Below are positions 25,340-42,252 of a stretch of 64,000 bases of DNA, piece after piece. Made by a program: the position numbers and the translations under genes. Positions within the stretch are counted from its first letter, which is position 1. The number at the start of each line of letters is the position of its first letter. This DNA is from an uncultured Thermoleophilia bacterium (GTDB taxonomy: Bacteria; Actinomycetota; Thermoleophilia; UBA2241), in NCBI GenBank assembly GCA_963702475.1, contig CAVPCT010000003.1:352001-416000 (forward strand), in the 5' to 3' direction. Below the pieces are notes generated by a model, which was not told the origin of the DNA, made no database searches, and was given only the letters and a program-made list of their open reading frames with translations.

Positions 25340-25686
25340 ATGGAGCTACACCACGTATCCGCGGCGGAGATCGCGACAGAGCCCCTGGACGTGGGGCCCG
25401 ACAGCAAGCTGCAGCTGGTGGACATCTTCGACCGTACCCAGGGGGCTCCGTTCTGCGCCGGGGTCTGCGAGGTGTTCCTGGCGCCCCCGTGGACTTCGAC
25501 TACGACGACGATGCCGCAGCGTGCTACATGCTGGAGGGCGACATCCTCCTCAGCGAGAACGGGGAGACGCGGGCGTTCAAGCCCGGGGACGTGGTCTACA
25601 TCCCCCAGAAGAAGGGCCTGGTCGTGTACTGGAGCACTGAGTCCTACGGCCGCTTCTTCTACGTCACGTATCCGCACTGGCGATGA
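25340..25686 (+). CDS. EutQ-like cupin; apparent one-base frameshift at ~25478
   Basis: RBS GGAGG; MELHHV...CAGVCEVF joins PGAPVDFDYDDD...LEG...PGDVVYIP...FFYVTYPHWR. Confidence 0.75.
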
Positions 25687-25773
25687 GGCGGGCGCCCGTC
25701 GTCGCGCGCGGAAGGCGGTCGCCGGTGACAGCTCGCGCGCAGTCCGTTCAGCCATCACTCACGGGGGGTAGCC

Positions 25774-27450
25774 GTGGCAACGGAACCTGAGCATCACGCC
25801 ACCACATGTTCCACGACGAGATGGACGCGCAGCACAAGCGCGACACCGAGCAGTTGGCCAAGTTCGGCTACACCCAGGAGCTCAAGCGCTCGCTCGGCTT
25901 CTTCTCCACCTTCGCCATCGCCTTCAGCTTCATCTCGGCGACCAACGGCTTCTACGCGCTCTTCTACTTCGGCCTGGACGTCGGCGGCCCGGCCGGCCTG
26001 ATCTGGCAGTGGCCGATGATCGTGTTCGGCCAGTTCATGGTCGCTCTGGTGTTCGCCGAGGCCGCCTCGCATTACCCGCTGGCCGGCGGTGTGTACCAGT
26101 GGGCCAAGCGGTTCATGGGCGGGAGCTATGGCTGGTTCGTGGCCTGGCTGTTCGCGGCGGCGCTTCTGGTGACGGTCGCGGCGGTCGCCTTCGGAGTGGC
26201 GCCGATCGTCTGCTCGCTCATGGGCTGGGATGCAAGCAACGCCACCACGCTGCTCTGGATCGCCATCGCCTTCGCCCTTGGCCCGATGATCCTGAACATC
26301 CTGAGCGTCAAGGTGACGGCCTTCTTCAACAACATCGGGACCGTCACCGAGATCATCGGGCTGGTGGTCATCGCCATCGCGTTGTACGCCGCCGTCATCT
26401 TCGGCAAGGGCGACCATCAGACCCTGGGCGTACTCTTCGATACCACGCCGGCGCCGGCCCCGGAGCCCTGTTCGGGTACGGCAGCATCTTCCTTGCGAGC
26501 ATGCTCACGGGCGCGTGGGTGCTGTACGGGTTCGACTCGGCGGGCGGTCTCGCCGAGGAGACCGTCAACCCGACACGTGAGGTGCCGCGGGCCATGCTGT
26601 TCGCGATCGGCATCACCGCCGTGCTCAGCGCGTTCTGGCTGGTTTCTATGGTCCTGGCCATCCCGGACGTCGCCGAGACGCAGGCGCAGGGGACGGGCGC
26701 GATCGCGTACATCTTCGATGCGCACTTCCCGACCTGGGTCACGGACCTCTTTCTCGTGGCGGTGATTGTGGCGATCTTCGTGTGCTGCCTGGCGATCCAA
26801 GCTGCTACGACGCGCCTGCTGTTCGCCTACGGTCGTGACAAGATGATCCCCGCCTCCAGGTTCTTCGCCTACGTGCATCCCAGCACGCGCACGCCGATGA
26901 CCTCTGCCATCTTCGTGGCCGTGGCCGCAGTCGTGGTGCTGCTCTACGTGAACCTCGGCGGCAGCGACCCCTTCCTCGCCATCGCCCGCGTCACCGCGTG
27001 GGCCACCGCAGGCACCTACATCGCCTACCAGATGGTCGTCTTCGGCGGCCTCGTGGCGAGATCAAGGGCTGGCCCAAGGAGAAGGCGTACTTCAACCTCA
27101 AGGGTTGGGGCTGGCCGGTCAACATCCTCGCGCTCATCTACGGCGTCTTCATGATCATCAATCTGGCGTGGCCGCGGACGCCCGACGCTGCCTGGTACGA
27201 CAACTACCTGGTCGTCGTCTCGCTGGCCGTCGTGCTCATCGCCGGCATCATCGTGTACGTCATCCAGCGGGCGCGTGGCGTCGACCTGAGCGTGACCATC
27301 CACGAGATCGACGAGTCGCCGGCCGAAGCCGTCGCGGTCGAGGCGATGGCGGCAGGTGAAGCCGGCCGCATGCTGAACACCGATGTGGTCACAGAGATGC
27401 AGCAGATGTCCGCAGACGACGATCCTGGGAAGGGAGGGATCACTTCGTAG
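25774..27450 (+). CDS. APC-family amino acid/amine permease; apparent frameshifts (~25800, ~26445, ~27062)
   Basis: GYTQELKRSL.FFS.FA.AFS, YPLAGGVYQW, YGFD.A..LAEET.NP, RLLFAYGRD, TP across three frames. Confidence 0.85.
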
Positions 27451-27661
27451 CGGTCGTGTGAGCGGGTCGGGGCGAGCGGCCGTCGGGCCGCCTCGCCGGC
27501 GTTCCGGCCCACGACAACGCCGCCTCAGGGCGGCGGGACGGAGGTGCGGCGGGCGGCGGCCGGATGGCCGCCGCCCCCGCGTCGGGGCCGGGCGGCATGA
27601 GTGCGCAGCTCACGCCGCCCGGCCCCGGGCACCTCCGCGGACACCGCCTCCGCCTTGCGTT

Positions 27662-27847
27662 TACGACGACGACGCTGCCGTCTGCTACATGCTCGAAGGC
27701 GACATCAGCCTCACCGAGGACGGTGAGTCGCGGTCCTTCCAGCCTGGGGACATCGTGTACATCCCTCAGCAGAAGGGGCTGGTCGTCTACTGGAGCACGC
27801 AGACGTACGGCAGGTTCTTCTACGTCACGTATCCTCACTGGCGCTGA
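27662..27847 (+). pseudogene. C-terminal half of a second EutQ-like cupin
   Basis: YDDDAAVCYMLEGDISLTEDGESRSFQPGDIVYIPQQKGLVVYWSTQTYGRFFYVTYPHWR closely matches the 25340 cupin; no N-terminal half or start upstream. Confidence 0.75.
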
Positions 27848-27870
27848 CGCGGTCCGGCGCGTGAGGCCGA

Positions 27871-28070: not shown

Positions 28071-28862
28071 ATGGATGAGCAGCGGGTGGAGCGCGACGAC
28101 CGGCTCCGGGAAGGCGTCGGGCAGGATGGTCCCCTGACGGACGAATCCCAAGGCACTTCGGAGGCGCACGACGGAGCGGATGTCAAGGCCCCGCCGCGCA
28201 TGACGATGCGGTTCTCGCGCAAGCGCGTGCTCGTGCTCGGCGGCGCTTGTGCGGCCGGACTCGTCGGCGTGGTCGCGGGGCTGAGAGCCCTGGGCGGCTC
28301 GGCCGGCTCGGCGGTCTCCTCCGTCGGCGAAGCGGTGAAGGACAGGTTCGGTCCGTTCCCGGTGCGCAGCGTGGACGAGATCGACGAGACGCCCATCTCG
28401 AGGTGGACGGTGCAGGTCGACGGGCTGGTGGACACGCCGCTCACCGTCGACCACGCGCTGTGGACCACGCTGCCGCGACTGGACGAGACGGTCGACTTCC
28501 ACTGCGTCGAGGGCTGGAGCGTGGCGAACGTGAAGTGGGGCGGCGTGGCGCCCAGCGTCCTGCTGGACAGGGCCGGCGTACACCCCGAGGCCAAGTACGT
28601 GATCGTGCACGCGGAATCCGGTGTGTACGTGAGCACGCTCCCGCTCGAGCTCATGCGGGACCCGCAGACCGTGCTCGCCGATATGCTCGCCGAGGAGCCC
28701 CTCCCGCTCAAGCACGGCGGCCCCCTGCGGCTCGTGGTGCCCAAGCAGCTCGGCTACAAGAACGTGAAGTGGGTCTCCCGCCTCGAGGTCACGGACAAGC
28801 CGCAGGCCGGCTACTGGGAGAGCCGCGGCTATCCTGAGGACGCTCCGGCAGGAGCCGGTTGA
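28071..28862 (+). CDS. Sulfite-oxidase-family molybdopterin-dependent oxidoreductase (MsrP-like), exported
   Basis: DFHCVEGWS, WGGV, HGGPLRLVVP..LGYKNVKW, GYWESRGY; SRKR plus hydrophobic Tat-like signal. Confidence 0.88.
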   Translation: MDEQRVERDDRLREGVGQDGPLTDESQGTSEAHDGADVKAPPRMTMRFSRKRVLVLGGACAAGLVGVVAGLRALGGSAGSAVSSVGEAVKDRFGPFPVRSVDEIDETPISRWTVQVDGLVDTPLTVDHALWTTLPRLDETVDFHCVEGWSVANVKWGGVAPSVLLDRAGVHPEAKYVIVHAESGVYVSTLPLELMRDPQTVLADMLAEEPLPLKHGGPLRLVVPKQLGYKNVKWVSRLEVTDKPQAGYWESRGYPEDAPAGAG

Positions 28863-29030: not shown

Positions 29031-29195
29031 ATGAAGTACGTCTGCACCGTCTGTGACTACGTCTACGACCCTGAAGTGGGCGACCCGGACAACGGCATCG
29101 AGCCGGGTACCGCGTTCGAAGACCTGCCGGACGACTGGGTGTGCCCCGAGTGCGGCGTGGAGAAGGAAGAGTTCGCGCCCTTCGTGGAGGATTGA
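29031..29195 (+). CDS. Rubredoxin
   Basis: [14 protein letters not shown]...[14 protein letters not shown]; RBS GGAGG. Confidence 0.97.
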
Positions 29196-29267: not shown

Positions 29268-30500
29268 TCAGGGGGTCGCGGATGCGGCCGGCGACGCAGT
29301 CGCCCCGGCCGTGAGCTGCTCGAAGCCCTCGGCCAGCGACAGGAGCTCCTGGCGGGTGAGGGCGCCGGTGACGTAGACGGCCCGGCGTCCGTTGCCGACC
29401 AGCAGCGTCGGTCCGGTGGCCGCGTACCACGTGGCGGCGGTCCGCCCGGCGAAGACCCCGTACTCGAGCGGCGTCTGCTCGAACGACAGCGCCGTGGCGC
29501 GCGCGGTCTCCAGGGCGCTCTCGAAGGCGGCTGGAGACGTCGTCGGGCCGACCTGGCGGACCTCGAACCAGGTGAGGCCGCGCGTGAACAGCTGGACTAT
29601 CTGGCGCGCGGAGCCGGCTCCCGTACTCCCGCCTGTCTCGGAGCCCCACACCGCCGGCGCGTCGCCGGCCGCCGCCGTGGCGACCGCGGCCTGCACGAAG
29701 CCGTCGGGCGCGAGGCTGGAGACGAGCGGGTCGAAGCCGGCGGCCTCGCCGGCGGCCGCCGAGGACCGCTCGTAGGTGTAGGTGCGGTCCACCGTGACGG
29801 TGGCCGGAGCGGTGGTCCCCAGAGTCGAGGCGCCGGGCGAGGGCGTGCCGTCGAGAGTCGCCCAGTCGACGCCGGCGGCGAACGTGGAGGAACCGTCGGT
29901 CCACCAGGTCACGAGTCCGGACGACTGGTCCACGACCAGCTCCTGGGTCGCGCCGTCGAGCTTCAGCGCGGCACGCCACACCTCGCGCCCATCCTGTTCG
30001 AGCGGTTTGATGCCGACGCTCGTGTCGCCGTCCTCGACTGCCGCTCTGACGATGGCGGACAGGCCCTGGAGCTCGAGTGGCGAGTGAGTACTCAGGCGCC
30101 AGACGGGGGGCCAGGCGCCGACGGTGACGGCGCCGCCGCGCTCCGCCCCGTCCACGGTGGTCCATTCGCTGCGTCTTCCGGCGTCGTAGGAGGATGAGAC
30201 CAGAGCGGTGCTCTCGTCGTCCGGGCGGAACGCACCGGTCGCGTCCCCTCCGGCGGTCGCCGCGAACGCGCCCCCGCCGGCGCGCCCTGCTCCGTCAGCG
30301 GACGCGCTCTGCCACGTGTAGGTCCCGCTCGCACTGCGCAGGACGGGCGCCGGCGGCTGCGGCGGCGTCCGGATGATGAAGACGTAGGCCAGCACGAACA
30401 GCACTGAGAACGCCAGCAGCATGGTGGAGAGGCCGTGTGGGCGGGTGTGCGCCCGGGCCGCCCGGATGCGCTGGCTGGTACGGCGCGGTGGTTCGATCAT
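29268..30500 (-). CDS. Membrane-anchored extracytoplasmic protein, LolA/RseB-like (paralog of the 35199 protein)
   Basis: N-terminal TM helix; C-terminal blocks align with the anti-sigma candidate at 35199-36620. Confidence 0.7.
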   Translation of the reverse strand: MIEPPRRTSQRIRAARAHTRPHGLSTMLLAFSVLFVLAYVFIIRTPPQPPAPVLRSASGTYTWQSASADGAGRAGGGAFAATAGGDATGAFRPDDESTALVSSSYDAGRRSEWTTVDGAERGGAVTVGAWPPVWRLSTHSPLELQGLSAIVRAAVEDGDTSVGIKPLEQDGREVWRAALKLDGATQELVVDQSSGLVTWWTDGSSTFAAGVDWATLDGTPSPGASTLGTTAPATVTVDRTYTYERSSAAAGEAAGFDPLVSSLAPDGFVQAAVATAAAGDAPAVWGSETGGSTGAGSARQIVQLFTRGLTWFEVRQVGPTTSPAAFESALETARATALSFEQTPLEYGVFAGRTAATWYAATGPTLLVGNGRRAVYVTGALTRQELLSLAEGFEQLTAGATASPAASATP

Positions 30501-30950: not shown

Positions 30951-32420
30951 GTGAAACGCAATCTGTTCGCGGGCCAGCGCCGCACCAGCGGCATCGGCCT
31001 CACCATGTTCAGCGACGACGAGCTCCGTATGATCCACCGCGGCACGCTCGTCGTCCTCGAGCGCACCGGCATCTGGGTGGAGCTGGACGAGGCGCTCGAC
31101 ATCTTCAGCGACGGCGGCTGCAGGGTCGACCGGGAGTCGCACATCGTCAGGATCCCGCCGCACATCGTGGAGGACTGCATCGCCGCCGCCCCCGAGGCCG
31201 TGGCGCTGTGCGGCCGCGACCCGAGGAACGACATCCTGCTCGAGCCCGGGCGCGTGGGCTTCAGCAACTTCGGCGAGGGCATCAAGGTCATCGATCCCTA
31301 CACCGGTGAGCTGCGGCCGTCCACCAAGAAGGACCTCGGCCAGATCGCCCGCCTGGTCGACGCGCTGCCCGACATCGACGTGTTCGAGATGGCCGTGGTC
31401 AGCGGCGACAAGCCGCCCGAGACGTTCTCGCTGCACAACCACGAGGCGGCGATCGTCAATCAGACGAAGCCCATCTCCGGCGGGGCCCAGGATGGCCGCG
31501 CCGTGCACACCACCGTCGAGATGCTGGCGGCCGTGCAGGGCAGCGAGGATGCGGTGCGCGAGCGCCCCATGATGGTCATGGGCACCTGCCCGGTGAGCCC
31601 GCTCAAGCTGGTCAAGGACTTCTGCGAGATCGTCATCGAGGCGGCGCGCGTCGGGCTGCCGTCCTGCGTGCTCAGCATGGCGATGGCCGGCGGCTCGTCG
31701 CCGGTGACGCTGGCCGGGACGCTCGTGACGCACAACGCCGAGGTGCTGGCCGGCCTCGTGCTCGCGCAGCTGACCGAGCGCGGCAGCAAGGTCCTGTACG
31801 GCTCGTCCACCACGGCCATGGACCTGCGGCTGGTCACGGCCTCCGTCGGCTCCCCCGAGTGCGCTCTCATCAGCGCCGGAGCGGCCGCGCTCGCGAAGCA
31901 GTACCGCCTGCCCAGCTACATCGCCGGGATGTAGGGCGACGGCAAGACCAGTGACGTGCAGACCGGTCACGAGAAGACCCTCACGGCTCTGATGGCGGCG
32001 TTGGCAGGGACCAACCTCATCTACGGGTCGGGCATGATCGAGTCGGGCGTCACCTTCGACTTCGCGCAGCTGGTCATCGACGACGAGATCGCGCGCATGG
32101 TCAAGCAGGTGGTCGGCGGCGTGCGCGTGGACGACGAGACGCTGGCGGTGGACGACATCGCCTCGGTCGGCTCGTTCGGCGACTTCCTCAGCCTGGACGC
32201 GACCATGGCGCACATGCGCGAGCAGTCGCAGCCCCGGCTCATGGACAGGCGCGTGCGCGAGGAGTGGGAAGAGGCGGGGAGCCCCGGCATGTACGAGCGC
32301 GCCCACGCCAGGGCACGCGACATCCTCGAGAACCACAGGCCGGAGCCGCTGCCCGACGACGTGCGGCAGCGGGTCCGCGACATCGTCGACCGTGAGGACA
32401 GGGCGGCCGGCAGGGCCTGA
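30951..32420 (+). CDS. mttB: Trimethylamine:corrinoid methyltransferase MttB, predicted pyrrolysine at the in-frame TAG 31932-31934 (codon 328; 489 aa)
   Basis: RBS GAGGAGGAAGG; MKRNLFAG...FSDDEL..IH..TL.VL, SPL, MAMAGGSSPVTLAGTLVTHNAEVLAG, GSPE..LIS, AGM*GDGK...GHEKTLT, G.N.IYGSGM; frame continues after TAG. Confidence 0.95.
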
Positions 32421-32639: not shown

Positions 32640-33674
32640 CTACTTCGCCTTCACGATCACTCCCGCCCAGACCCACGTGTCGCCCGGCGCGAGAGGGCGC
32701 CGCTCCATGAAGTGCCAGAAGGCGCAGTAGTAGAGATCCGCACATGCGCCCGACCCCGAGGACGTCCAGTACTGGAAGTGCTCGATCCCGCCGGGCCCGC
32801 GCACAGCCGTCGATCCGAGGTCCTCCCAAGCCCCGTCCTTGGTGGTCAGGGTGGACCACGAGGAGGAATCGATGCTGCCGTCGCGTCGCCGGTGGCCGAT
32901 CTCCTCGATGAAGCCTTCAAGCCGGCCGCTCACGCGCGGGTCCGACTGCTCGAGGTCAAGGATCCAAGGATCCGAGGTGTCGTATGCCGTCTGTCTCATG
33001 GTGGCGATGCCGACGACCGGCGTCCAGTTCGCCGGCGCCGTGCCGGGGCCGGGGGCCGGCGGCACCGGGCTCCCGTCGGTCGTCTCGATCCAGCCCGCGC
33101 CGACGTACTTGGTACTGGGATTCACCCAGCCCGCGCCGGCCTCCGGGAACCACCAGCACCCGCGCGTGACGAGGCCTGCGTAGTCGCCCGTCCCCCTCGC
33201 GCTGCGGTGGGCGGGTTGGCCTCCCATGTCCGCCGCGCGGCCAGCGATGCCGCCCGTCCACCTGCCCAGCCAGGTCCCGCCCTGGTTGCGCAGGCGCCAC
33301 GTGCCCCGCATGCGGGCGCTCCCGCCTTGGCGCGCTTCGAGGTAGATCACTATGTCGACCCTGCCGCTCAGGCGCGGATCGGAGCTCTCCTGGCGGAGTG
33401 TGCAGACGGTGTACCATTGTCTGCGGCCGCCGATCTGCTTGAAGTCTTCGCGCCTACCGGTCTGCGACTGCGTCCAGACGTAGGGGAGCATGCCGTGGAA
33501 CTCGTGGACGGACGCAGAAGGCGTGACTGCGGCGGACGTGCTGCTCGCCGCCGCCGGCCCTGAGGCCACTCCGCCGGCCGTGCTCGCGCACGCCGTCGCG
33601 CACGCCGTCACCGCTGCCGTGCCCACCAAAAGGCACAGCAGGCTCACCATCCTCGATGCGACCCGGTCCTTCAT
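32640..33674 (-). CDS. Putative lipoprotein with duplicated beta-rich domain (SDPRxSG repeat)
   Basis: Signal with ACA/ACAS; two internal repeats; paralog of the 33762-34799 protein; RBS AGGAAGGAG. Confidence 0.75.
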   Translation of the reverse strand: MKDRVASRMVSLLCLLVGTAAVTACATACASTAGGVASGPAAASSTSAAVTPSASVHEFHGMLPYVWTQSQTGRREDFKQIGGRRQWYTVCTLRQESSDPRLSGRVDIVIYLEARQGGSARMRGTWRLRNQGGTWLGRWTGGIAGRAADMGGQPAHRSARGTGDYAGLVTRGCWWFPEAGAGWVNPSTKYVGAGWIETTDGSPVPPAPGPGTAPANWTPVVGIATMRQTAYDTSDPWILDLEQSDPRVSGRLEGFIEEIGHRRRDGSIDSSSWSTLTTKDGAWEDLGSTAVRGPGGIEHFQYWTSSGSGACADLYYCAFWHFMERRPLAPGDTWVWAGVIVKAK

Positions 33675-34872: not shown

Positions 34873-34969
34873 CGCCGCCGTTGGCCGGGGGGTTGGCTCG
34901 TGTGCGGCAGGGAGTGCTGGTCGATCAAGGGGTTGGGAGCCCGCTACCCGCGGGCGCACTCCACCTTTC

Positions 34970-35205
34970 AGTCCGCCTCGCGCGGGGCCCTCTCGGGCCG
35001 CGAATCGCTCAACAGCACTCCGGCGGCTTCGCACGCTACGGGCGTTAGTCCGCCTCGCGCGGGGCCCTCTCGGGCCGCGAGTCGCTCACTAGCGCTACGG
35101 CAACTGCGTCGCCTGCGGGCATTAGTCCGCCTCGCGCGGGGCCCTCTCGGGCCGCGAATCGCTCAACAGCACTCCGGCGGCTTCGCACGCTACGGGCGTT
35201 AGTCC
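34970..35205. repeat. Three 77-bp tandem structured repeats (units 1 and 3 identical, unit 2 variant)
   Basis: AGTCCGCCTCGCGCGGGGCCCTCTCGGGCCGCGA starts at 34970, 35047 and 35124; partial AGTCC at 35201. Confidence 0.95.
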
Positions 35206-36620
35206 TGGGTCGCCGGAGCCGCCGGGTACGCCTGCAGCGAGTTCGCGACCTCGAGGAGCTCCTCGGCCGTGGCCGCTCCCGCGATCGTCAGGAGGACGCC
35301 TTCCTTGACGGCCCAGAGGTGAGGCGCGGACGACGTGGTCGCGACCACGATGCTCGCCGTCTGGCCGGCGAAGGCGCCGGAGGTGATCGGGGCCCGCGTG
35401 AGGACCAGCGCGGTCCAGGAGGGGTCGTACGCGTCCACCGGGTCCTCGCGCGCCGTGTAGTACGGGTCGGCGATGGTGCGCGTGGAGACCGTGAGCGCGT
35501 CGAAGCCGTGCGTGTACTGCAGCTCGAAGATGTGACGCGTGCGGACGAGGTGGTTCGCCGTGAGTGCCTCCTCCGCCACTGCCGCGGCGGCCAGGCTGAA
35601 GCCGGACGGCACGAACCCAGGCACGAGCGGCGTCACTCCCGGGAGCCCGCCCGCCTCCTCCAAGGTGACGCGCCGGAAGCCCGCGTCCATGTGCCGGACC
35701 GGCCGCCTCTCGGCCGCCGGCAGCGAGAACGCGTTCGCCGGCAGTGGCTCGTTGTAGCGGACGTCCAGGTACCGCAGGTCGGCGATGAGCACCCCTCCTT
35801 CGATTTGCTGGAAGCGAAGGGGGAGCCACGTGCGCTTGTCGACCGTGACCTTGTAGACGGGCCAGTCGACGGTCGAGCCGGAGACCGCTCGCTTGCCGAT
35901 GTCCCCCTTCGTGCAGGTCACCGTCCAGGCCGGACGGCCGTCCACCACGGTGTCCTCGAGGGTGAAGGCGCCGGCCGCCTCCATGGCGCGCCCGCCGCTC
36001 CCGAAGTCGACCCCCGTCAGCGGGTCGGCGGGCGCGTCCGGCGGCCCGAGCGGGACGTTGCGCGTGACGACCAGTCCTCGTCCTGCGCGGTAGTGGCCGA
36101 GGACGCTTGTCTTGGCGTCGTAGACGAGGACGTCGGTCGGCTGCGCGGAAGCGGACGCGCCGGACCCGCCGTGGCGGGTCCGCCCCAGCTGGGTGAGGCG
36201 GTAGCTGCCGTCGGCGCTCTGCAGCAGGTGGTAGCGGAGGTAGTCGTAGTGGTAGCCGATCAGGGACCGGTTCCAGTCGGTGGCCTTGAGCGTCACGTCG
36301 GCCTGCCAGGTGCGTCCAGACGACGAGGCGGTCAGCACGCGCTTGAGTATCGTGCCGGCGTCGACGGGCTCCGGGCCGCGAGAGCGCGGCAGACCGAAGA
36401 GGACGGCCGCGGCGGCCACCGCGACGACGGCGGTGGCGACGGCGGCGAGGCGCAGGCGCCGGCCGCCGAGGGTGGCGCGCAGTCGTTGTGCGAGACTGGG
36501 GTGCGGTTCTGCGGCGGCGCGAAGCTGCAGGCGGAGCCGATCCCAGTAGTCCGGCGCGTGGTCCGGCTCGGCGATGCTCTCGAGCCGGCGTCCGAGCTCG
36601 ATGTCGCGCTGCTCGTTCAC
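35199..36620 (-). CDS. Putative anti-sigma factor: cytoplasmic N-terminus, TM helix, LolA/RseB-like extracellular domain
   Basis: GTGA overlap with the ECF sigma gene; ELGRRL...DH.PDYW..L, single TM, VDKRTWLP...YNEPLP..F. Confidence 0.75.
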   Translation of the reverse strand: MNEQRDIELGRRLESIAEPDHAPDYWDRLRLQLRAAAEPHPSLAQRLRATLGGRRLRLAAVATAVVAVAAAAVLFGLPRSRGPEPVDAGTILKRVLTASSSGRTWQADVTLKATDWNRSLIGYHYDYLRYHLLQSADGSYRLTQLGRTRHGGSGASASAQPTDVLVYDAKTSVLGHYRAGRGLVVTRNVPLGPPDAPADPLTGVDFGSGGRAMEAAGAFTLEDTVVDGRPAWTVTCTKGDIGKRAVSGSTVDWPVYKVTVDKRTWLPLRFQQIEGGVLIADLRYLDVRYNEPLPANAFSLPAAERRPVRHMDAGFRRVTLEEAGGLPGVTPLVPGFVPSGFSLAAAAVAEEALTANHLVRTRHIFELQYTHGFDALTVSTRTIADPYYTAREDPVDAYDPSWTALVLTRAPITSGAFAGQTASIVVATTSSAPHLWAVKEGVLLTIAGAATAEELLEVANSLQAYPAAPATQD

Positions 36621-37315
36621 GGCTCCAGCTCACGGCCGACTGTGGCGCCGAGGCTGTGGCGTAGCCTGGCTCGTGCCGAGGACAGGCGCGAGGCCAAGGT
36701 CCCCATGGGTACGCCGAGGATGTCCGCCGCCGCCGAGTAGTCGAAGCCCTCGCGGTCGACCAGCAGGACGGCCAGACGTTGTTCGGGCGACAGGGCGGAC
36801 AGGGCCGCCGCGAGTGCCTCGCGGACCGCCAGCGCGTCGGCGGGGTCCGGGTCACAGTCGTCTGGCTCGGGCATCTCCTCCGGAGGTAGAGGGACCAGCC
36901 GCCTGGACCGCGCTACGGCGTCGCAGCAGGCGCGGTAGGTGATGCGGCAGAGCCAGGTGCTCAGCGACGCCTCCCCGCGAAAGCCGGCGAGCGAGCGGTA
37001 GACCCTGAGCGAGACCTCCTGGAGGACGTCGTCCATCAGCTGGCGGTCCGCCAGCGTGTGATAGGCGACGATGCGCAGGCGGCGGTCGTAGTGCCGCATG
37101 ACGGCGATGAACGCCTCGCCGTCGCCGGCTGCGGCCGCGGCGAGGACGCTCGGGTCGATCTCCTCGGTCCTCCGGGCCACGGCAGACACGGCCGCCCCTC
37201 CCTCCGGACGCCTGACCCTCCTCTGGATGAACGTACCACTCCCGGGGAGTCGCAGGCCCGTTGCCGCGAGGGCGCTGTCGGCCCCAACACGAGCCGCGAC
37301 CGTCGTCGCGTGCAT
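36617..37315 (-). CDS. ECF RNA polymerase sigma factor (alternative start GTG 37189)
   Basis: GD.EAF, DDVLQEV.LR.YR.L..FRGE.S..TWL.RI, L.PEQR.AV.L...EG.DY...A.ILGVP.GT..SRL..AR. Confidence 0.92.
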   Translation of the reverse strand: MHATTVAARVGADSALAATGLRLPGSGTFIQRRVRRPEGGAAVSAVARRTEEIDPSVLAAAAAGDGEAFIAVMRHYDRRLRIVAYHTLADRQLMDDVLQEVSLRVYRSLAGFRGEASLSTWLCRITYRACCDAVARSRRLVPLPPEEMPEPDDCDPDPADALAVREALAAALSALSPEQRLAVLLVDREGFDYSAAADILGVPMGTLASRLSSARARLRHSLGATVGRELEP

Positions 37316-37337
37316 GGCTCCTCTCCCTCCTCTCGGT

Positions 37338-37430: not shown

Positions 37431-38123
37431 TCAGTTCCCCGAGAGCACCCAGTCCTTGGCGGCTGCCAGGTGCACCTTGAGGGTGTACCCTGCGCCGCCG
37501 TCGGTGACGGAGTACGCGAAGTCGCCGTTGCCCGTCCCCTGCGCCATGGGCGCGTGCGTCCAGGGGTTCTGCGGCCACACGGGCACGCCGGGCTGCAGGC
37601 CGACCGCGCCGGCGGCGCCCAGGTCGGCCCCGGCCGGCGGCGTGCCGCCGTGGCCGGCCCTCCACGCCTCGACATAGCTCTGCAGCAGCGCCAGGCCGGC
37701 CTTGCTCGCGTCGTCGCGGTCGGTCTTGAGCCACGCCGGGACGCCCCCGGTGAGCTTGTAGTCGCCGCTCGACAGGTGGCCGATGAGCGTGTAGCCGGTG
37801 CCGTCGGCTTTCAATCTGTAGGTGTAGGTGCCCCTGCTGGTGCCCGGAGCCATGGTCTTGCCGGTCCACGGGTTGCCCGGCCACACCGGCGCCACCAGGG
37901 CGCCGCCCTTCTTGACGTCGGCGACAGCGGGGTAGGTGAAGCCGTCCTTCTCCGCCTGGGTGTTGACGTAGCCCTGCAACAGCAGGACGTTCATCTGCAC
38001 CTGCTTGTCGACGAAGCTCGGGGCGGCGGCGGCCTGCTGCGGCAGCGCCGCGGCCGTGAAGAAGGAGAGCGCCGCGGCCGCGAGCACCGCGGCGCCGCGC
38101 CTCAGCGGGACATGTTTCGGCAT
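37431..38123 (-). CDS. Secreted protein with two pilin/GspG-head-like WPxNP domains
   Basis: RR-containing signal ending AAA; repeats WPGNPWTG..M..G...G.YTY and WPQNPWT..PM..G...G.FAY. Confidence 0.75.
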   Translation of the reverse strand: MPKHVPLRRGAAVLAAAALSFFTAAALPQQAAAAPSFVDKQVQMNVLLLQGYVNTQAEKDGFTYPAVADVKKGGALVAPVWPGNPWTGKTMAPGTSRGTYTYRLKADGTGYTLIGHLSSGDYKLTGGVPAWLKTDRDDASKAGLALLQSYVEAWRAGHGGTPPAGADLGAAGAVGLQPGVPVWPQNPWTHAPMAQGTGNGDFAYSVTDGGAGYTLKVHLAAAKDWVLSGN

Positions 38124-38259: not shown

Positions 38260-39648
38260 ATGGAACCCCGCTTCCCCACCCGCATGGGCGACGGCTTCAT
38301 GGTCGAGAGGACGCGCAGCGAGCTGCGCGCCGACATCGAGGACGCGACGCGTGAGGCGGCGCGCAAGGCCAAGGCGCCGCCACTTGCCTCCGACGAGCAA
38401 GAACACCTGCTCGACATCTACGCCTCTCGCGCGGCCTTCACGGCCGTCGACATCGGCGACCAGGTCGTGCTGAGCTGCGATGGCGGCGGCAGCAAGATGA
38501 CCGGCACCGACCTGCTCGACCTCCTGGAGAGCGAACAGCGTCTGGGCCAGGACATCCTCGAGCTGTGGCACATCGAGTACAGCTACAAGGCCATCAAGAC
38601 GATCCTGCCGTTCCAGCAGCAGGTGATGCAGAACGTCCAGCTGATGCTCACCGCTCCGGTGCAGTACGGCGCCCAGCCCAACCTCGCCTTCTACAGCCGG
38701 CCGGACGGGCCGTGCGAGAACTGGTTCGAGCTGCTGCCGCGTGGCGACGTGGCGGGCGCCCGCGCGGCCGTCGAGGAGGCCATGGAGTACGCCACGCAGG
38801 ACTTCGTGTACGTGGCGGACGGCATGATCGAGGCCGGCGCCGACGGCGTGGACTTCGACACCACCGGAGGCGCCGGCGACGCCGACCTCTTCAGCACCCT
38901 CCGCGCCGTGAAGCACGTCCGCGAGCGGTACCCGGAGGCCGGCGTGGAGCTCGGCATGGCCGGAGAGTTCGTGATCGGCGTGCACGGCGAGCTCGCCTGG
39001 GACGGCCGGCGGCTCGCCGGCCTCTGGCCCAAGGGCCAGCTCGAGGTCGCGCAGGACGCCGGCGCCACCATCTTCGGACCGGCCGTCAACATCCGCACCG
39101 GCCGGTCCTGCTGCTGGAACACGGCGTACTCGCTCACCGTCATCAAGCCGTGTATGGAGGTAGCGCGCATCCCCGTCCACGTGAACGTGGGCGAAGGGGT
39201 CTGCGGCGTGCCCGTGAACGGCTACCCGCCCGAGGACGCGTCGTCACGGGCGGCCAAGGCGCACGTGGAGATCCTCGGCTGCGACGGCTTGTAGGTCGGC
39301 TCGGGTGACTCCAGGGGCATGGACGTCACCCACGCGCTCGCCGCGGGCATGGGCGGCATGCGCACGGCCGGAGACCTGGTCGCGCGCCTGCAGATGTCCC
39401 GGGGCATGCGCCTCACGGAGGCGAAACGGTACGTCGCGGAACGGCTGGCTTGCTCGGTCGGTGATCTGAGCGACAGCTACGCGATGGAGCAGCTGCGCGG
39501 CGAGCTGGGTCTGGGGCGGATCCTCGACCACTCGAACCTGCACCCCGGCAAGCCGAACGCGCTGGCGGCGAAGTTCCGTATCGCTGAACTGCTCGGCCTG
39601 CGGATCAACTCGGTGGAGCGCTTTCGGGAGCTGGCGGGGCTGGCGTGA
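38260..39648 (+). CDS. mtbB: Dimethylamine:corrinoid methyltransferase MtbB, predicted pyrrolysine at the in-frame TAG 39292-39294 (codon 345; 462 aa)
   Basis: TRMGDG, EL.HIEYSYK, YGAQPNL..Y..PDGP.EN, GADGVDFDTTG.AGDAD, GMAGE.V.G.HG.L..DG..LAGLWP, FGP.VN, DGL*VGSGD..GM, GMR.AGDLVAR, INS. Confidence 0.95.
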
Positions 39649-40120
39649 CGGCGGCGCGGCGGGCGGCGCGCATGGCCGCGCCGACGGTCAGCGAGGCCAG
39701 CCCGATCGGCACCAGCAGGATGCCCGTGAGCAACGTCAGGTAGAGGCCCAGACCTGGCCGGTACAGGTCGATCATCGAATCGGCCGCCGCGACCGACTCC
39801 ACCGCGTATACCGCGCCGGCAGCCACGACGACGAGGCTCAACGCGATCGTGACGCGCCGCGGCCCCAGCACGAGCAGCAGGACGGCCGCAGCCAGCGCCG
39901 CGAGCGCGGCCGCCAGCACCGGTGGCCCCCACTGCGTCTGCAGCACGCCGACCACCTCGGGCGGCTTGCTGAGGCCGAAGTTCACGGACTGCTCCGTGTA
40001 GTGGTTGGCCCACGGCAGGAAGAGCGAGACCACGCCGACGGCGCCGCCGGCGATCATCAGGGCGGCGTAGCCGACCCAGTCGGCGCGGGTGAAGCGGTGT
40101 CTGCGGCGCGCGAGCTTCAT
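39605..40120 (-). CDS. Hypothetical multi-pass membrane protein
   Basis: RBS GGAGGAGAAGG; SLFLPW and PGLGLYL motifs, 4 TM helices; overlaps the mtbB 3' end convergently. Confidence 0.7.
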   Translation of the reverse strand: MKLARRRHRFTRADWVGYAALMIAGGAVGVVSLFLPWANHYTEQSVNFGLSKPPEVVGVLQTQWGPPVLAAALAALAAAVLLLVLGPRRVTIALSLVVVAAGAVYAVESVAAADSMIDLYRPGLGLYLTLLTGILLVPIGLASLTVGAAMRAARRAAVTPAPPAPESAPPS

Positions 40121-40251
40121 GGTCCCGACCTTCTCCTCCCGGGCTGGATACCGCTCAAGGCGGTTCCGCCAAACGCCAGACCGCACAGATGGCTGCAGGA
40201 TGAGTCCGGAGCGGCCGATAGTCCACCTGACACCTGCGAGGGAGGAGCGAG

Positions 40252-40629
40252 ATGAGACGATCCGTGATCTGCCTGGCCGCCGCGCTGGCCGTGCTCGCGC
40301 TCGCGGCGGCACTCGGCGCCTGTGGCTCCGAGGACATCCAGACACCGACCGACACCATCGACATCGCCAAGGACCAGGCCGTCAAGGCGCAGATCATGAT
40401 GATCAAGACGGGCGTGACTGCCTACGTCCAGCTGAACGGCGTGGCGCCTGCGAACGCGTCCGCGGAGACGCTCGGGAGCTTCGTGCAGCCCTGGCCGGAC
40501 AACCCCTTCACGCAGGCGCCGATGAAGCAGGGCAAGGAGCCGGGCGACATCGCCTATGCGCCCGGCGCCGGCACGGCCTACACCCTCGGCGTGGTGGTGT
40601 CCGACGGCAGCGTGTACAACGCGCCGTGA
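40252..40629 (+). CDS. Lipoprotein with pilin/GspG-head-like WPxNP domain
   Basis: Lipobox LGAC; KDQAVKAQI..I..GV.AY...WPDNPFT..PM. Confidence 0.78.
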   Translation: MRRSVICLAAALAVLALAAALGACGSEDIQTPTDTIDIAKDQAVKAQIMMIKTGVTAYVQLNGVAPANASAETLGSFVQPWPDNPFTQAPMKQGKEPGDIAYAPGAGTAYTLGVVVSDGSVYNAP

Positions 40630-40663
40630 GGTGAGATGTCGCCGCCCGGTAGAGCTCGCGCGG

Positions 40664-40765
40664 GTCGTGCCGGAGGATGGCGCCGCGGCCGACGAACTGC
40701 TGGCTTCGGGCGACGACGCTCTCTACAGGGCCAAGCACGAGGGCCGAGACAGAGTGTGCGTCGCG
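40664..40765 (+). pseudogene. Remnant of a GGDEF-domain C-terminus
   Basis: VVPEDGAAADELLASGDDALYRAKHEGRDRVCVA matches the D.ALY.AK..GR.RV end of GGDEF domains; no GGDEF core upstream. Confidence 0.6.
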
Positions 40766-40875
40766 AGGGGGCTCGCCGCCGAGGGCGGCGCCGGCGCGAC
40801 TCTCGATCGCCTGCCGGCTCCTGCCCCGCAGCCGGCTGGTTCCGAGGCTCGTCCCGGCGGCAGCGCGACGCGGCG

Positions 40876-42252
40876 TCACGCCCCTATGAGGCGCTTCACG
40901 TAGGTCGCCCGCCTGCTGGGCCGGCCGCTGGCCAGCTCGGTCTCGTCGGCGCTGCTCATGGCCCGCAACGCGGCGTTGACCCCGAGCCAGCGCAGCGGTT
41001 CGCGCTCCCAGAGCGGCGACCGGTGGTCTGCCCAGGGCAGGTCCGTCAGGGGGGTCCTCCGGTCCAGGATCAGGTCGCGAAGCGTGCGGCCGGCGAGGTT
41101 GGTGGTCGCCACGCCGTCACCGATGTAGCCGCCTGCCCACGCCATACCGGTGCCGCGGTCGAGACCCACCGAGGAGTACCAGTCGCGCGGCGCCGCGACG
41201 GCGCCGCCCCAGTGGTGCGTCACGCGCACGCCGCTGAGCGCCGGGAAGAGCTCGGCGAGCAGCTCCGTGAGGTGCCGGCGCACGTGCTCGTCCCGCTCGA
41301 AGCGTTCGTTCAGCCGCGAGCCGGCGTGGTAGGGGGCGCCGCGCCCACCCAGCGCGATGCGGCCGTCGTCGGTGCGTGCCGCATAGTAGATGAGGTAGCG
41401 GAAGTCGCCGAACACCTCGCGTCCGGCCCAGCCGATCTCGTCCCATGCCTGGGCCGGGAGCGGCTCGGTGCCGATCATCAGCGAGTAGATCGGCACTACC
41501 GTGCGCGCGCACCCGGGGAGCTGCGGCGTGAACGCCTCGGTGGCGCGGACGATCACCTCGGCGCGCACCGCGCCGCACGGCGTGTGGGCGCACCGCGGCT
41601 CCAGGCGCGTGACCGGGGTGCGCTCGTAGATGCGCACCCCCCGTCGCTCGACGGCCGCGGCCAGGCCGCGCGCCAGTCTGGCCGGGTCCACGCACGCCGC
41701 GTGCGGCGAGTAGCCGGCGCCCAGGCAGCCGGCCACGCGCACGCGTGCGCGCGCTTCGGCCGCCGCGAGCTGACGGTAGTCCTCCTCGCCGAAGCCCCAT
41801 GACCGCTCCCACGCCACGGCGTCGCGCAGGCGCAGCAGCTGTACCGGCGTGGCCGCCAGGTCGAGGGTCCCGCCGCGGTGGAAACGCGCCTCGATGCCCT
41901 CCTCGGCGACCACGCGACCGATCTCGTCCACGGTCGCGTGCAGGGCGCGCTGCTGATCGACGACCTTCTGGCGCCCGTGACGCCGAGCGGCCTTCTCGCG
42001 AGAGCCGGGGAACGTGGTGTGGCACCAGCCGCCGTTGCGCCCCGAGGCTCCGAACCCGGCGATCTCCCGCTCCAGCACCGCGATGCGCAGGTGGGGGTCG
42101 GCCCCGGCCAGGTAGTACGCCGTCCACAGTCCCGTGAACCCGGCCCCCACGATGGCCACGTCGACGTCCAGGTCCCCCGGCAGGGACGGCCGTGGCGTGA
42201 GGCTCTCTTCCAGACCGTCGAGCCAGAGACTGCGTGCGCGGTAGTCGGTCAA
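40876..42252 (-). CDS. FAD-dependent amine oxidoreductase (DAO/PuuB-like)
   Basis: TTG start with RBS GAGGAG; GAGFTGLWTAY, GASGRNGGW, GGY.GDGV. Confidence 0.88.
   Translation of the reverse strand: MTDYRARSLWLDGLEESLTPRPSLPGDLDVDVAIVGAGFTGLWTAYYLAGADPHLRIAVLEREIAGFGASGRNGGWCHTTFPGSREKAARRHGRQKVVDQQRALHATVDEIGRVVAEEGIEARFHRGGTLDLAATPVQLLRLRDAVAWERSWGFGEEDYRQLAAAEARARVRVAGCLGAGYSPHAACVDPARLARGLAAAVERRGVRIYERTPVTRLEPRCAHTPCGAVRAEVIVRATEAFTPQLPGCARTVVPIYSLMIGTEPLPAQAWDEIGWAGREVFGDFRYLIYYAARTDDGRIALGGRGAPYHAGSRLNERFERDEHVRRHLTELLAELFPALSGVRVTHHWGGAVAAPRDWYSSVGLDRGTGMAWAGGYIGDGVATTNLAGRTLRDLILDRRTPLTDLPWADHRSPLWEREPLRWLGVNAALRAMSSADETELASGRPSRRATYVKRLIGA

What the first reader, a model, noticed from the sequence alone, without database searches (positions are those of the whole stretch)
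25340..42252. Candidate pyrrolysine-based methylamine-utilisation system in a Thermoleophilia-like actinobacterium, with dispersed organisation
Seen: two non-homologous Pyl-type methyltransferases lie about 6 kb apart as stand-alone genes. No cognate corrinoid protein, RamA activator, corrinoid:THF methyltransferase or pyl operon is present in the 64 kb window. Amine-related genes are nearby (APC permease, EutQ-like cupins, DAO-family oxidoreductase), along with anaerobe-type genes (rubredoxin; FTR-c and MocA-HD further along). Independent ambers at the right column in two unrelated enzymes are very unlikely by chance. Inference: sequential TMA to DMA to MMA demethylation feeding a THF methyl branch, in a lineage where genetic-code expansion is poorly documented. 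The taxonomy is my inference.
Basis: inference. Interest (0 to 1): 0.85.

Follow-up and report, generated by a model that had tools for sequence, protein, structure and literature searches.

The report
Pyrrolysine methylamine methyltransferases in a Thermoleophilia genome
Two genes for methylamine-demethylating enzymes that need the rare 22nd amino acid pyrrolysine are real, and the same genome carries the full machinery to make and insert it, so this soil or sediment actinobacterium very likely reads some UAG stop codons as pyrrolysine; related genomes have been reported to do this.

Summary
The window has an MttB-type gene (31005-32420, TAG at 31932-31934) and an MtbB-type gene (38260-39648, TAG at 39292-39294). 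Both pass NCBI's equivalog cut-offs. The MttB TAG aligns with the pyrrolysine of the solved Methanosarcina MttB (7xcl). The MtbB TAG sits where database homologues are cut off.

The same 1.14-Mb contig carries pylB, pylC, pylD, tRNA-Pyl(CUA), pylSn and pylSc, 225-270 kb downstream. The genome also has:
- 15 TAG-bearing MttB loci, 10 MtbB loci and 1 MtmB locus
- a canonical mtmBC/mtbBC/mttBC cluster
- about 27 corrinoid-protein loci and RamA-like activators
- ACS, MTHFR, FTHFS and RF1

TAG still ends 15% of long ORFs.

The two window genes are not scattered at random. They sit in a locus conserved in congeners (PAS-LuxR, cupin, APC permease, Mo-oxidoreductase, MttB, MtbB, DAO oxidoreductase), always without a corrinoid gene.

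PylSc is family-wide: 51 of 55 sampled same-family genomes. Named relatives are Thermoleophilia MAGs, including UBA2241.

Prior print exists. Guo 2022 lists a Thermoleophilia PylS. Ellenbogen 2023 reports Actinobacteriota expressing Pyl-type mttB/mtbB. Verdict: a real, new member of a known kind.

The parts
23874..25319 (-). PAS-PAS-LuxR(GerE) transcription regulator, at the edge of the conserved locus
   Evidence: Pfam PAS_3, PAS_4 and GerE. Syntenic in G020, G015 and G013 at 55-77% identity.
25340..25686 (+). Small cupin gene, frameshifted in this assembly by a 1-base deletion near 25476
   Evidence: The N-terminal part is in the frame of ORF 25340. The cupin C-terminus ('...GDVVYIPQKKG...') is in the frame of ORF 24373-25686. 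The gene is in one frame in G020. The deletion is seen against G020 and G013.
25806..27450 (+). APC-family amino-acid/amine permease, broken by 1-base deletions near 26449 and 27061
   Evidence: Pfam AA_permease_2 on two frames. NCBIfam's best hit is the 'permease, urea carboxylase system' family, below cut-off. The gene is in a single frame in G020, G015 and G013. Deletions lie in homopolymer contexts.
27383..27847 (+). EutQ-like cupin
   Evidence: Pfam EutQ E 1.8e-7, Cupin_3.
28071..28862 (+). Molybdopterin-binding oxidoreductase (MsrP/sulfite-oxidase type)
   Evidence: Pfam Oxidored_molyb E 6e-35. Syntenic in 4 congeners.
29031..29195 (+). Rubredoxin (54 aa)
   Evidence: ORF '[14 protein letters not shown]...[15 protein letters not shown]'. 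The CxxC...CPxC motif is recognised from recall; no family scan was run.
29268..30500 (-). Conserved membrane-anchored protein of unknown function
   Evidence: No Pfam or NCBIfam hit. Syntenic at 43-55% identity in 4 congeners.
31005..32420 (+). Pyl-type trimethylamine:corrinoid methyltransferase (MttB), 471 codons
   Evidence: PF06253. TIGR02369 665.6 bits against cut-off 525. 7xcl/7xcm E 1e-109. Orthologues at 82-92% identity in G020, G022 and G013.
31932..31934 (+). In-frame TAG of mttB, read as pyrrolysine (residue 310)
   Evidence: Aligns to X in 7xcl. Same column as the TAG of 13 other paralogues.
32640..34928 (-). Two paralogous secreted/lipoprotein-like unknowns. They are part of an insert between mttB and mtbB.
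   Evidence: No family hit. Only weak matches (32-36%) in G020; none in G022 or G013.
35199..37315 (-). ECF sigma factor (36617-37315) and a putative anti-sigma factor (35199-36620), also part of the insert
   Evidence: Sigma70_r2/r4_2. Present in G020. No match in the 20-kb stretches of G015, G022 and G013.
37431..38123 (-). Secreted repeat protein (two 'WPxNPWT..PM..G..Y.Y' modules). It lies next to mtbB in G020, G022 and G013, and between mttB and mtbB in the two where they are close.
   Evidence: Translation. Syntenic, with tandem copies in G013. No family hit.
38260..39648 (+). Pyl-type dimethylamine:corrinoid methyltransferase (MtbB), 462 codons. It is the most divergent full-length copy in the genome.
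   Evidence: PF09505 E 1.4e-152. TIGR02368 389.8 bits against cut-off 369.1. Orthologues at 84-91% identity in 24 of 30 congeners; at most 59% identity to other paralogues.
39292..39294 (+). In-frame TAG of mtbB, read as pyrrolysine (residue 345)
   Evidence: Database homologues stop here. The orthologues and paralogues listed in congeners keep one TAG each, apart from one contig-end partial.
39605..40629 (.). A membrane protein (39605-40345, -) and a small secreted repeat protein (40252-40629, +). Both are syntenic.
   Evidence: Translations. Synteny.
40876..42357 (-). DAO-family FAD oxidoreductase (amine/amino-acid oxidase type)
   Evidence: PF01266 E 2.5e-56. NCBIfam's best hit is 'putative aminophosphonate oxidoreductase', 228 bits, below its 633-bit cut-off. 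Adjacent in G015 and G022.

Best explanation
The window holds two working genes for pyrrolysine-dependent methylamine methyltransferases: an MttB (trimethylamine type) and an MtbB (dimethylamine type). The host is an anaerobic Thermoleophilia bacterium, probably of family UBA2241, that decodes selected UAG codons as pyrrolysine.

Shown:
- Both genes are intact across the TAG.
- The TAG sits at the catalytic Pyl position.
- The same contig encodes PylB, PylC and PylD (Pyl synthesis from lysine), tRNA-Pyl(CUA), and a split bacterial-type synthetase (PylSn + PylSc).
- RF1 is kept and TAG still ends 15% of long ORFs, so UAG is ambiguous, as in other Pyl bacteria.

Inferred:
- Each enzyme moves a methyl group from its amine to the Co(I) of a corrinoid protein encoded elsewhere. 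None lies within 250 kb on this contig, but about 27 loci exist in the genome.
- RamA-type activators re-reduce oxidised corrinoid.
- An MT2 passes the methyl to tetrahydrofolate.
- The methyl is then oxidised or fed to acetyl-CoA synthase.

The two genes form a conserved accessory locus with a PAS-LuxR regulator, cupins, an APC permease and a DAO-type oxidoreductase. The genome's canonical mtmBC/mtbBC/mttBC cluster lies on another contig.
For: Gene identity and TAG position.

Pyl machinery on contig C3, all above curated cut-offs:
- pylB, 438 bits against cut-off 348
- pylC, 322.7 against 248
- pylD, 209 against 150
- tRNA-Pyl cta at C3:641046-641118
- pylSn, 126 against 51
- pylSc, 314.6 against 178; it aligns end to end with Desulfitobacterium PylSc 3dsq/2zni, E 3e-92

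Methyltransferase repertoire:
- 15 of 75 MttB-family matches bear TAG.
- 7 full-length plus 3 fragmented MtbB loci.
- 1 MtmB with TAG.
- 33 corrinoid-protein matches, about 27 loci.
- 3 RACo/RamA genes.
- URO-D and pterin-binding MT2 candidates.
- ACS, MTHFR, FTHFS, RF1 at 477 bits against cut-off 423.

Codon usage and specificity of read-through:
- Of 2267 confident ORFs of 200 aa or more, 1858 end in TGA, 349 in TAG and 60 in TAA.
- A blind scan for coding signal on both sides of a TAG recovered 24 methyltransferase loci.
- 20 other candidates were scanned; in 15 the two sides carry separate Pfam domains or only one side has a hit (for example secY then adk), 5 had no hit, and no domain spans a TAG.

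Selection and distribution:
- Orthologues of the window MtbB at 84-91% identity, with the TAG kept and the C-terminal part aligned, occur in 24 of 30 congeners.
- Locus synteny is seen in 4 congeners.
- PylSc is above cut-off in 23 of 24 congeners and in 51 of 55 sampled same-family genomes.
Against: - There is no direct evidence of expression or of Pyl in a peptide. No RNA run is on record for this stretch.
- No corrinoid, activator or MT2 gene lies in the window or in the 20-kb syntenic stretches of 4 congeners, so the partners are assumed.
- The window MtbB is the most divergent full-length copy and clears the equivalog cut-off by only 20 bits.
- The cupin and permease next door carry 1-base deletions. 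This may mean decay of the locus in this strain, or long-read assembly errors.
- The genome is a MAG (93.8% complete, 6.5% contamination).
- The identity of the MT2 and the fate of the methyl group are inferred from gene presence only.
Confidence: 0.85

Rival explanations
1. The two window genes are neofunctionalised Pyl-methyltransferase paralogues. They act on some other methylated amine taken up by the adjacent APC permease, not on TMA or DMA. The DAO oxidoreductase and cupins process the demethylated product.
For: - Synteny of regulator, cupin, permease, MttB, MtbB and DAO is conserved across congeners, always without a corrinoid gene.
- The window MtbB forms its own orthologue group: 84-91% identity within it, at most 59% to the other copies. 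It is near the family cut-off.
- The genome holds 15 TAG-MttB and 10 MtbB loci, more than one substrate each would seem to need.
- A separate canonical mtmBC/mtbBC/mttBC cluster already covers TMA, DMA and MMA.
Against: - Both proteins pass NCBI's equivalog cut-offs for the TMA and DMA enzymes.
- The MttB is about 50% identical to the solved TMA enzyme over its whole length, by eye from the alignment.
- No Pyl-type methyltransferase with another substrate is known to me (recall).
- Several genes between the permease and the methyltransferases look unrelated to amines (secreted repeat proteins, ECF sigma), so the synteny may not mark an operon.
Confidence: 0.2
2. The TAGs are true stops. The genes are pseudogenes, or encode truncated proteins, left over from a Pyl-using ancestor or donor.
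For: TAG is a common stop here: 349 of 2267 long ORFs. Neighbouring genes show frameshifts. Several other MtbB and MttB copies in the genome are fragmented.
Against: - HMM and structure-sequence alignments run through the TAG to the C-terminus.
- GC3 after the TAG is 0.95 and 0.89.
- The C-terminal parts are conserved at 84-92% identity in congeners, with the TAG retained.
- The complete Pyl machinery is present.
Confidence: 0.04
3. The contig is misbinned or recently transferred from a classical Pyl lineage (Firmicutes, Deltaproteobacteria), so the trait is not actinobacterial.
For: The genome has 6.5% contamination. Three of the 28 nearest PylSc loci bear non-actinobacterial titles: Deltaproteobacteria, Zixibacteria, Peptococcaceae.
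Against: - The contig is 1.14 Mb, a quarter of the genome. Its GC is 0.703, against 0.695-0.709 for the other eight contigs.
- It carries housekeeping genes: the purine pathway and ddl in the window, RF1 and FTHFS.
- TAG-bearing methyltransferases lie on 7 of the 9 contigs.
- Same-genus genomes share the locus synteny.
- 51 of 55 sampled same-family genomes have PylSc.
Confidence: 0.02

Closest known systems
Methanosarcina barkeri MttB (PDB 7xcl/7xcm/7xcn) with its corrinoid protein MttC
   Same: Full-length homology, E 1e-109. The pyrrolysine position is identical, inside the conserved 'LPSY[IV]AG-x-Pyl-[SG]D[AG]K' stretch. The window protein passes the same NCBIfam equivalog.
   Different: The host is bacterial. 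There is no adjacent mttC, and no corrinoid gene within 250 kb on the contig. The methyl acceptor downstream is presumably tetrahydrofolate, not coenzyme M (inferred).
Bacterial Pyl systems with split PylSn + PylSc (Desulfitobacterium hafniense; Acetohalobium arabaticum; Olavius delta1 symbiont)
   Same: PylS is split. PylSc aligns end to end with D. hafniense PylSc, E 3e-92. TAG is kept as a frequent stop alongside Pyl, as Zhang and Gladyshev 2007 noted for D. hafniense (passages).
   Different: The gene order differs: pylBCD-pylT, then pylSn 1.1 kb on, and pylSc 15 kb away on the other strand beside an mtbB. The usual compact cassette order is recalled, not taken from a call. The host is an actinobacterium. 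The repertoire is much larger, 26 TAG-bearing methyltransferase loci against 8 in the delta1 symbiont, which was the bacterial record in 2007. I did not search for later counts.
Thermoleophilia/UBA2241 MAGs already in print
   Same: - Guo et al. 2022 list a 'Thermoleophilia bacterium' PylSc among two actinobacterial PylRS (main-text passage and supplementary tables).
- Ellenbogen et al. 2023 report that some Actinobacteriota MAGs of a thawing permafrost mire express Pyl-encoding mttB and mtbB. They name genus Bog-752, which their tables place in Thermoleophilia/UBA2241, among the most active methylotrophs (passages and supplements).
   Different: In the passages and tables I read, those papers do not describe the pyl gene set, tRNA-Pyl, the paralogue counts, the family-wide spread or this conserved orphan locus. 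Guo's table has no PylSn entry for the Thermoleophilia record, whereas this genome has one.

Membership tests
Pyrrolysine genetic-code expansion system | Pyrrolysyl-tRNA synthetase catalytic part (PylSc) | tested here: met
   TIGR02367 314.6 bits against cut-off 178. Aligns end to end with 3dsq/2zni.
Pyrrolysine genetic-code expansion system | PylSn (N-terminal tRNA-binding part, a separate gene in bacteria) | tested here: met
   TIGR03912 126.2 bits against cut-off 51, at C3:642228-642485.
Pyrrolysine genetic-code expansion system | tRNA-Pyl with CUA anticodon | tested here: met
   ARAGORN finds tRNA-Pyl (cta) at C3:641046-641118, 70 bases after pylD. Its special structural features were not examined.
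Pyrrolysine genetic-code expansion system | Biosynthesis genes pylB, pylC and pylD | tested here: met
   438.1 bits against 348, 322.7 against 248, 209.1 against 150. The genes are contiguous at C3:637885-640975.
Pyrrolysine genetic-code expansion system | Pyl actually inserted at UAG in protein | not testable with these tools
   Needs proteomics. No RNA run is on record either.
MttB, Pyl-type trimethylamine methyltransferase (TIGR02369 / PF06253) | Family score above the curated equivalog cut-off | tested here: met
   665.6 bits against 525.
MttB, Pyl-type trimethylamine methyltransferase (TIGR02369 / PF06253) | In-frame UAG at the catalytic Pyl position | tested here: met
   Opposite X of 7xcl. 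Same column in 14 of 14 TAG-bearing paralogues aligned.
MttB, Pyl-type trimethylamine methyltransferase (TIGR02369 / PF06253) | Cognate corrinoid protein gene (mttC) adjacent | tested here: not met
   None in the window or in 4 syntenic loci. The nearest on the contig is 259 kb away. Adjacency is usual but does not define the enzyme family.
MttB, Pyl-type trimethylamine methyltransferase (TIGR02369 / PF06253) | TMA:corrinoid methyl transfer activity | not testable with these tools
   Needs an enzyme assay.
MtbB, Pyl-type dimethylamine methyltransferase (TIGR02368 / PF09505) | Family score above the curated equivalog cut-off | tested here: met
   389.8 bits against 369.1, a narrow pass. Pfam gives 508.9 bits.
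MtbB, Pyl-type dimethylamine methyltransferase (TIGR02368 / PF09505) | In-frame UAG at the family's conserved position | tested here: met
   Homologues called by pipelines end at this residue. There is one TAG in each of the 7 full-length copies here and in 149 of the 150 listed matches in congeners. A UBA2241 MAG gene in Ellenbogen's BLAST table ends at residue 355 of M. barkeri MtbB. That Pyl is residue 356 there is recalled.
MtbB, Pyl-type dimethylamine methyltransferase (TIGR02368 / PF09505) | Cognate corrinoid protein gene (mtbC) adjacent | tested here: not met
   The nearest corrinoid gene is 252 kb away. None lies in the syntenic loci.
Methyl-THF / Wood-Ljungdahl route for the methyl group | Methylcorrinoid:THF methyltransferase (MT2) for methylamines | tested here: inconclusive
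   There are 11 URO-D-family matches, several beside corrinoid genes, and 3 pterin-binding matches. Which one serves these enzymes is unknown.
Methyl-THF / Wood-Ljungdahl route for the methyl group | MTHFR, FTHFS and acetyl-CoA synthase present | tested here: met
   PF02219 151.6 bits. PF01268 834.5 bits. CdhC/ACS 211.9 bits, with RACo and a pterin-binding gene nearby at C5:445-453 kb.

The most novel reading that the evidence does not exclude
The UBA2241 family of Thermoleophilia is a large, vertically inherited Pyl-decoding bacterial clade. Its Pyl-methyltransferases have radiated (15 TAG-bearing MttB and 10 MtbB loci in one genome) onto substrates beyond TMA and DMA. The window locus would then be a conserved orphan MttB-MtbB pair, with its own regulator, permease and FAD oxidase, that takes up and demethylates a so far unrecognised methylated amine, borrowing corrinoid proteins in trans.
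Probability: 0.2. Interest if true: 0.7.

Novelty: new member of a known kind. Interest (0 to 1): 0.45.

Why it matters
Pyrrolysine use in bacteria has been documented mainly in Firmicutes and Deltaproteobacteria. The 2022 census that I read counted two actinobacterial PylRS among 81 bacterial ones.

This genome and its relatives show that a whole family of uncultured, high-GC, anaerobic Thermoleophilia carries the trait: 51 of 55 sampled species-level genomes. These organisms are common in peat, lake sediment and wet soil, going by the titles of related records. The methyltransferase repertoire is unusually large.

Such bacteria would compete with methylotrophic methanogens for methylamines and so bear on methane budgets. 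Ellenbogen et al. 2023 raised this point.

For annotation, standard gene callers cut these genes at the TAG. Most listed database homologues of the window's MtbB are such truncated entries of about 344 aa.

Tried and rejected
- **RNA evidence.** The look-up of sequencing runs listed no RNA holder. The four runs that hold part of the stretch are contigs of unknown kind from one study.
- **Laid contigs.** Laying those contigs gave sparse, short, low-depth pieces, 95-99% alike, evidently from relatives and paralogues. They show no indel rows at 25476, 26449 or 27061, but cover is too thin to say whether the frameshifts are assembly errors. No conclusion drawn.
- **Selenocysteine at the Pyl column.** Two MttB-family matches with an in-frame TGA (C3:1129658, C6:1622) were checked. 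The TGAs lie at the edges of the matches (alignment columns 28 and 537, against the Pyl column 360), so they are gene ends or upstream sequence.
- **Pyl outside methyltransferases.** I scanned 20 of the 78 non-methyltransferase candidates from the blind scan, chosen by size. In 15 the two sides carry separate Pfam domains or only one side has a hit; 5 had no hit. No domain spans a TAG. The other 58 were not examined.
- **MtbB structure.** No solved structure matches by sequence.
- **One odd homologue.** One full-length database homologue (P0103, 47% identity) has Q at the Pyl column. I did not follow it up.
- **Unknown proteins.** Pfam and NCBIfam gave nothing for 29268-30500, 32640-34928, 35199-36620, 37431-38123 and 39605-40629.

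Full report
**1. What is in the window**

The window is G+C-rich (0.67-0.75). I picked real genes by third-position GC.

Reading TAG through joins two pairs of ORFs:
- 30435-31934 + 31935-32420. With the likely start at 31005, this gives a 471-codon protein.
- 37972-39294 + 39295-39648. With the likely start at 38260, this gives a 462-codon protein.

The first is an MttB:
- Pfam PF06253, E 4e-88.
- NCBIfam TIGR02369 'trimeth_pyl', 665.6 bits against a curated 525.

The second is an MtbB:
- PF09505, E 1.4e-152.
- TIGR02368, 389.8 bits against 369.1.

The two families are unrelated in sequence. GC3 remains 0.95 and 0.89 downstream of the two TAGs.

**2. Are the ambers at the right place, and beyond chance?**

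For MttB, the phmmer alignment to the solved Methanosarcina enzyme (7xcl, E 5e-109) puts the TAG codon exactly opposite the chain's X. The stretch reads 'lpsyiagm-O-gdgk' against 'lpsyvags-X-sdak'.

The genome has 75 matches to the MttB family. I aligned the 54 longest:
- 14 carry an in-frame TAG, all in a single alignment column.
- 40 carry none.

For MtbB there is no solved structure. The evidence is comparative:
- Most of the 120 listed database homologues are about 344 aa and cover 71-74% of the query. Three that I aligned end at '...DG[LY]', the residue before the TAG. This is what gene callers produce when they stop at an amber.
- All 7 full-length MtbB copies of this genome have exactly one TAG.
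- In 30 of 30 sampled congeners MtbB is present. 149 of the 150 listed matches have one TAG; the exception is a partial at a contig end. 66 further matches were not listed.

Chance is excluded.

**3.

The window is G000:C3:352001-416000, in a 4.31-Mb, 9-contig genome that is 93.8% complete with 6.5% contamination.

On the same 1.14-Mb contig lie:
- pylB at C3:637885-638913
- pylC
- pylD at 640193-640975
- tRNA-Pyl with anticodon CUA at 641046-641118
- pylSn at 642228-642485
- a corrinoid protein at 643673-644248
- a second TAG-bearing mtbB at 655986-657347
- pylSc at 657647-658372 on the minus strand

All five proteins score above NCBI's curated cut-offs. PylSc aligns end to end with Desulfitobacterium hafniense PylSc (E 3e-92). 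The control genomes behaved as expected: only Methanosarcina passes.

So the Pyl machinery is present and physically linked to the window.

**4. The rest of the methylamine system**

- MtmB: one copy with a TAG (C9:301399-302748) and four without.
- Corrinoid proteins: 33 matches, about 27 loci.
- RamA/RACo-type activators: three genes.
- MT2 candidates: 11 URO-D-family matches, several next to corrinoid genes, and 3 pterin-binding matches.
- C1 pathway: acetyl-CoA synthase, MTHFR, FTHFS.

Contig C9 has a textbook cluster:
- mtmB(TAG)-corrinoid at 301399-303426
- mtbB(TAG)-corrinoid at 308746-310800
- mttB(TAG)-corrinoid at 316310-318377

These copies have the highest family scores.

Orphan copies are also common. 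7 of 15 TAG-MttB loci and 7 of 10 MtbB loci have no corrinoid gene within 10 kb. The window's two genes are among them; the nearest corrinoid gene on the contig is 252-259 kb away.

**5. How UAG is used genome-wide**

Among 2267 ORFs of at least 200 codons with a coding GC signature, 1858 end in TGA, 349 in TAG and 60 in TAA. RF1 is present. TAG is therefore an ordinary stop as well.

A blind scan for coding signal on both sides of a TAG gave 102 candidates, of which 24 are the methyltransferase loci. I scanned 20 of the remaining 78 against Pfam:
- In 15, the two sides carry separate domains or only one side has a hit, as expected for two adjacent genes in the same frame (secY then adk, plsX then acpP, toxin-antitoxin pairs).
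- 5 had no hit.
- No domain spans a TAG.

I found no sign of Pyl outside the methyltransferases, but 58 candidates were not examined.

**6. The locus is conserved, not random**

A tblastn of the window's proteins on 20-kb stretches of four congeners shows this order: PAS-LuxR regulator, cupin, APC permease, Mo-oxidoreductase, a membrane protein, MttB(TAG), a secreted repeat protein, MtbB(TAG), two small membrane/secreted proteins, DAO oxidoreductase.

- G020, G022 and G013 have this order in full as far as their stretches reach; the DAO gene was matched in G015 and G022 only.
- G015 has the same order but lacks the MttB.
- In G022 and G013, mttB and mtbB are only about 1.3 kb apart.
- The 6-kb gap in the window comes from two paralogous secreted proteins and an ECF sigma/anti-sigma pair. 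These have matches only in G020, and the secreted proteins match there only weakly (32-36%).
- None of these stretches, nor the window, holds a corrinoid protein gene.

The window's MtbB has orthologues at 84-91% identity in 24 of 30 congeners. It is at most 59% identical to any other paralogue. It is therefore an old, separately maintained copy.

**7. Blemishes**

Relative to G020 and G013, the window has single-base deletions at about 25476 (cupin), 26449 and 27061 (permease). All are in short homopolymer contexts, and all break the frames that are intact in the relatives. Several other MtbB and MttB copies in the genome are also split between frames.

This looks like long-read consensus error, but real decay cannot be excluded. 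The laid contigs were too sparse to tell.

**8. Who is it?**

I took the 28 loci in species-representative genomes that encode the nearest PylSc (53-73% identity). Their titles divide as follows:
- 20 'Thermoleophilia bacterium', one of them UBA2241
- 5 Actinomycetota or Actinomycetes
- 3 otherwise: Deltaproteobacteria, Zixibacteria, Peptococcaceae

Coordinates of some titled loci coincide with PylSc matches of same-genus and same-family handles. The titles therefore apply to the window's own kin. The family is most likely GTDB UBA2241 (inference).

PylSc is above cut-off in:
- 23 of 24 congeners
- 51 of 55 sampled genomes of the same family
- 9 of 55 genomes of a second family
- 0 of 190 genomes of ten other families of the class

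These are a sample, and kin are not independent.

**9. What is already in print**

- Guo et al. 2022 (PMC9630628; one main-text passage and two supplementary tables) found PylRS in two Actinobacteria among 81 bacterial genomes. One is a 'Thermoleophilia bacterium', with no PylSn listed.
- Ellenbogen et al. 2023 (PMC10805028; passages and supplementary tables) state that some Actinobacteriota MAGs in a thawing permafrost mire express Pyl-encoding mttB and mtbB. They name genus Bog-752 among the most active methylotrophs, and their tables place it in Thermoleophilia; UBA2241. Their BLAST table shows a Bog-752 gene whose match to M. barkeri MtbB ends at residue 355.
- McDaniel et al. 2020 (PMC7438021; passages) describe the order UBA2241 as anaerobic, hgcA-bearing Thermoleophilia and suspect methylotrophy. 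The passages I read say nothing of pyrrolysine.
- Zhang and Gladyshev 2007 (PMC1976440; passages) called 8 Pyl proteins in one deltaproteobacterium the bacterial record of that time.

Full-text searches found nothing further:
- 'Thermoleophilia' + 'pyrrolysine': one unrelated soil paper
- 'Thermoleophilia' + 'mttB'
- 'UBA2241'
- 'Bog-752'
- 'pyrrolysine' + 'Actinomycetota' or 'Actinobacteriota'

Subscription journals are not covered.

**10. Verdict**

It is not a first: the lineage's Pyl-type genes and a PylS have been reported.

What this analysis adds:
- the complete, linked pyl gene set with tRNA-Pyl and PylSn
- the size of the repertoire (26 TAG-bearing methyltransferase loci, 21 of them full-length in one frame)
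- the family-wide spread
- the conserved, corrinoid-less MttB-MtbB locus with its permease and oxidase

I did not test it.

Noticed in passing
window 25476, 26449, 27061: Single-base deletions relative to two congeners, in homopolymer contexts. They frameshift the cupin gene (25340-25686) and the APC permease (25806-27450), which are intact in the relatives. Either assembly error or real decay.
   Followed up: partly
window 37431-38123 (-), 40252-40629 (+), 43389-44465 (-): A lineage-specific family of secreted proteins sharing a module like 'WPxNP[WF]T..PM..G...G.Y.Y....GY.L'. There are no Pfam or NCBIfam hits. Copies flank mtbB in the congeners, and G013 has tandem copies.
   Followed up: partly
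window 32640-37315: Two paralogous lipoprotein-like unknowns and an ECF sigma/anti-sigma pair sit between mttB and mtbB. They have matches only in G020 (the lipoproteins only weakly) and look like an insertion into the locus.
   Followed up: partly
G000, whole genome: The MttB superfamily is greatly expanded: 75 matches, at least 54 near-full-length, 40 of those without Pyl. About 30 lie on contig C4 alone. This suggests broad quaternary-amine demethylation capacity.
   Followed up: partly
G000:C5:571067-572416, C4:65316-66659, C9:248475-249818, C2:42577-43938: Four MtmB-family genes without any TAG. Each lies within 170 bases of a corrinoid-protein gene. These are non-Pyl MtmB homologues of unknown substrate.
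   Followed up: no
G000:C3:167171-167268: A tRNA-Sec (tca) is predicted, so the genome may use both the 21st and the 22nd amino acids. Selenoprotein genes were not looked for.
   Followed up: no
G000:C3:1126031-1128084 and C5:930963-933026: Two similar mttB(TAG)-corrinoid pairs. In both, the corrinoid gene is split at the same point (profile positions about 140-145), with a TGA in the second piece. This could be a duplicated locus with a shared frameshift or a repeated assembly artefact.
   Followed up: no
G000:C5:747049-748995 (L066): secY ends in TAG and is followed in the same frame by adk. This is a housekeeping example of TAG serving as a true stop in a Pyl-decoding genome.
   Followed up: yes
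G000:C6:44799-46178 (L067): A carbon-nitrogen hydrolase gene ending in TAG is followed in frame by a small B12-binding-domain protein.
   Followed up: no
P0103 (database protein, 468 aa): A full-length MtbB homologue (47% identity) with Q at the pyrrolysine column. It may be a non-Pyl variant or a translation made under a code that reads TAG as Q.
   Followed up: no
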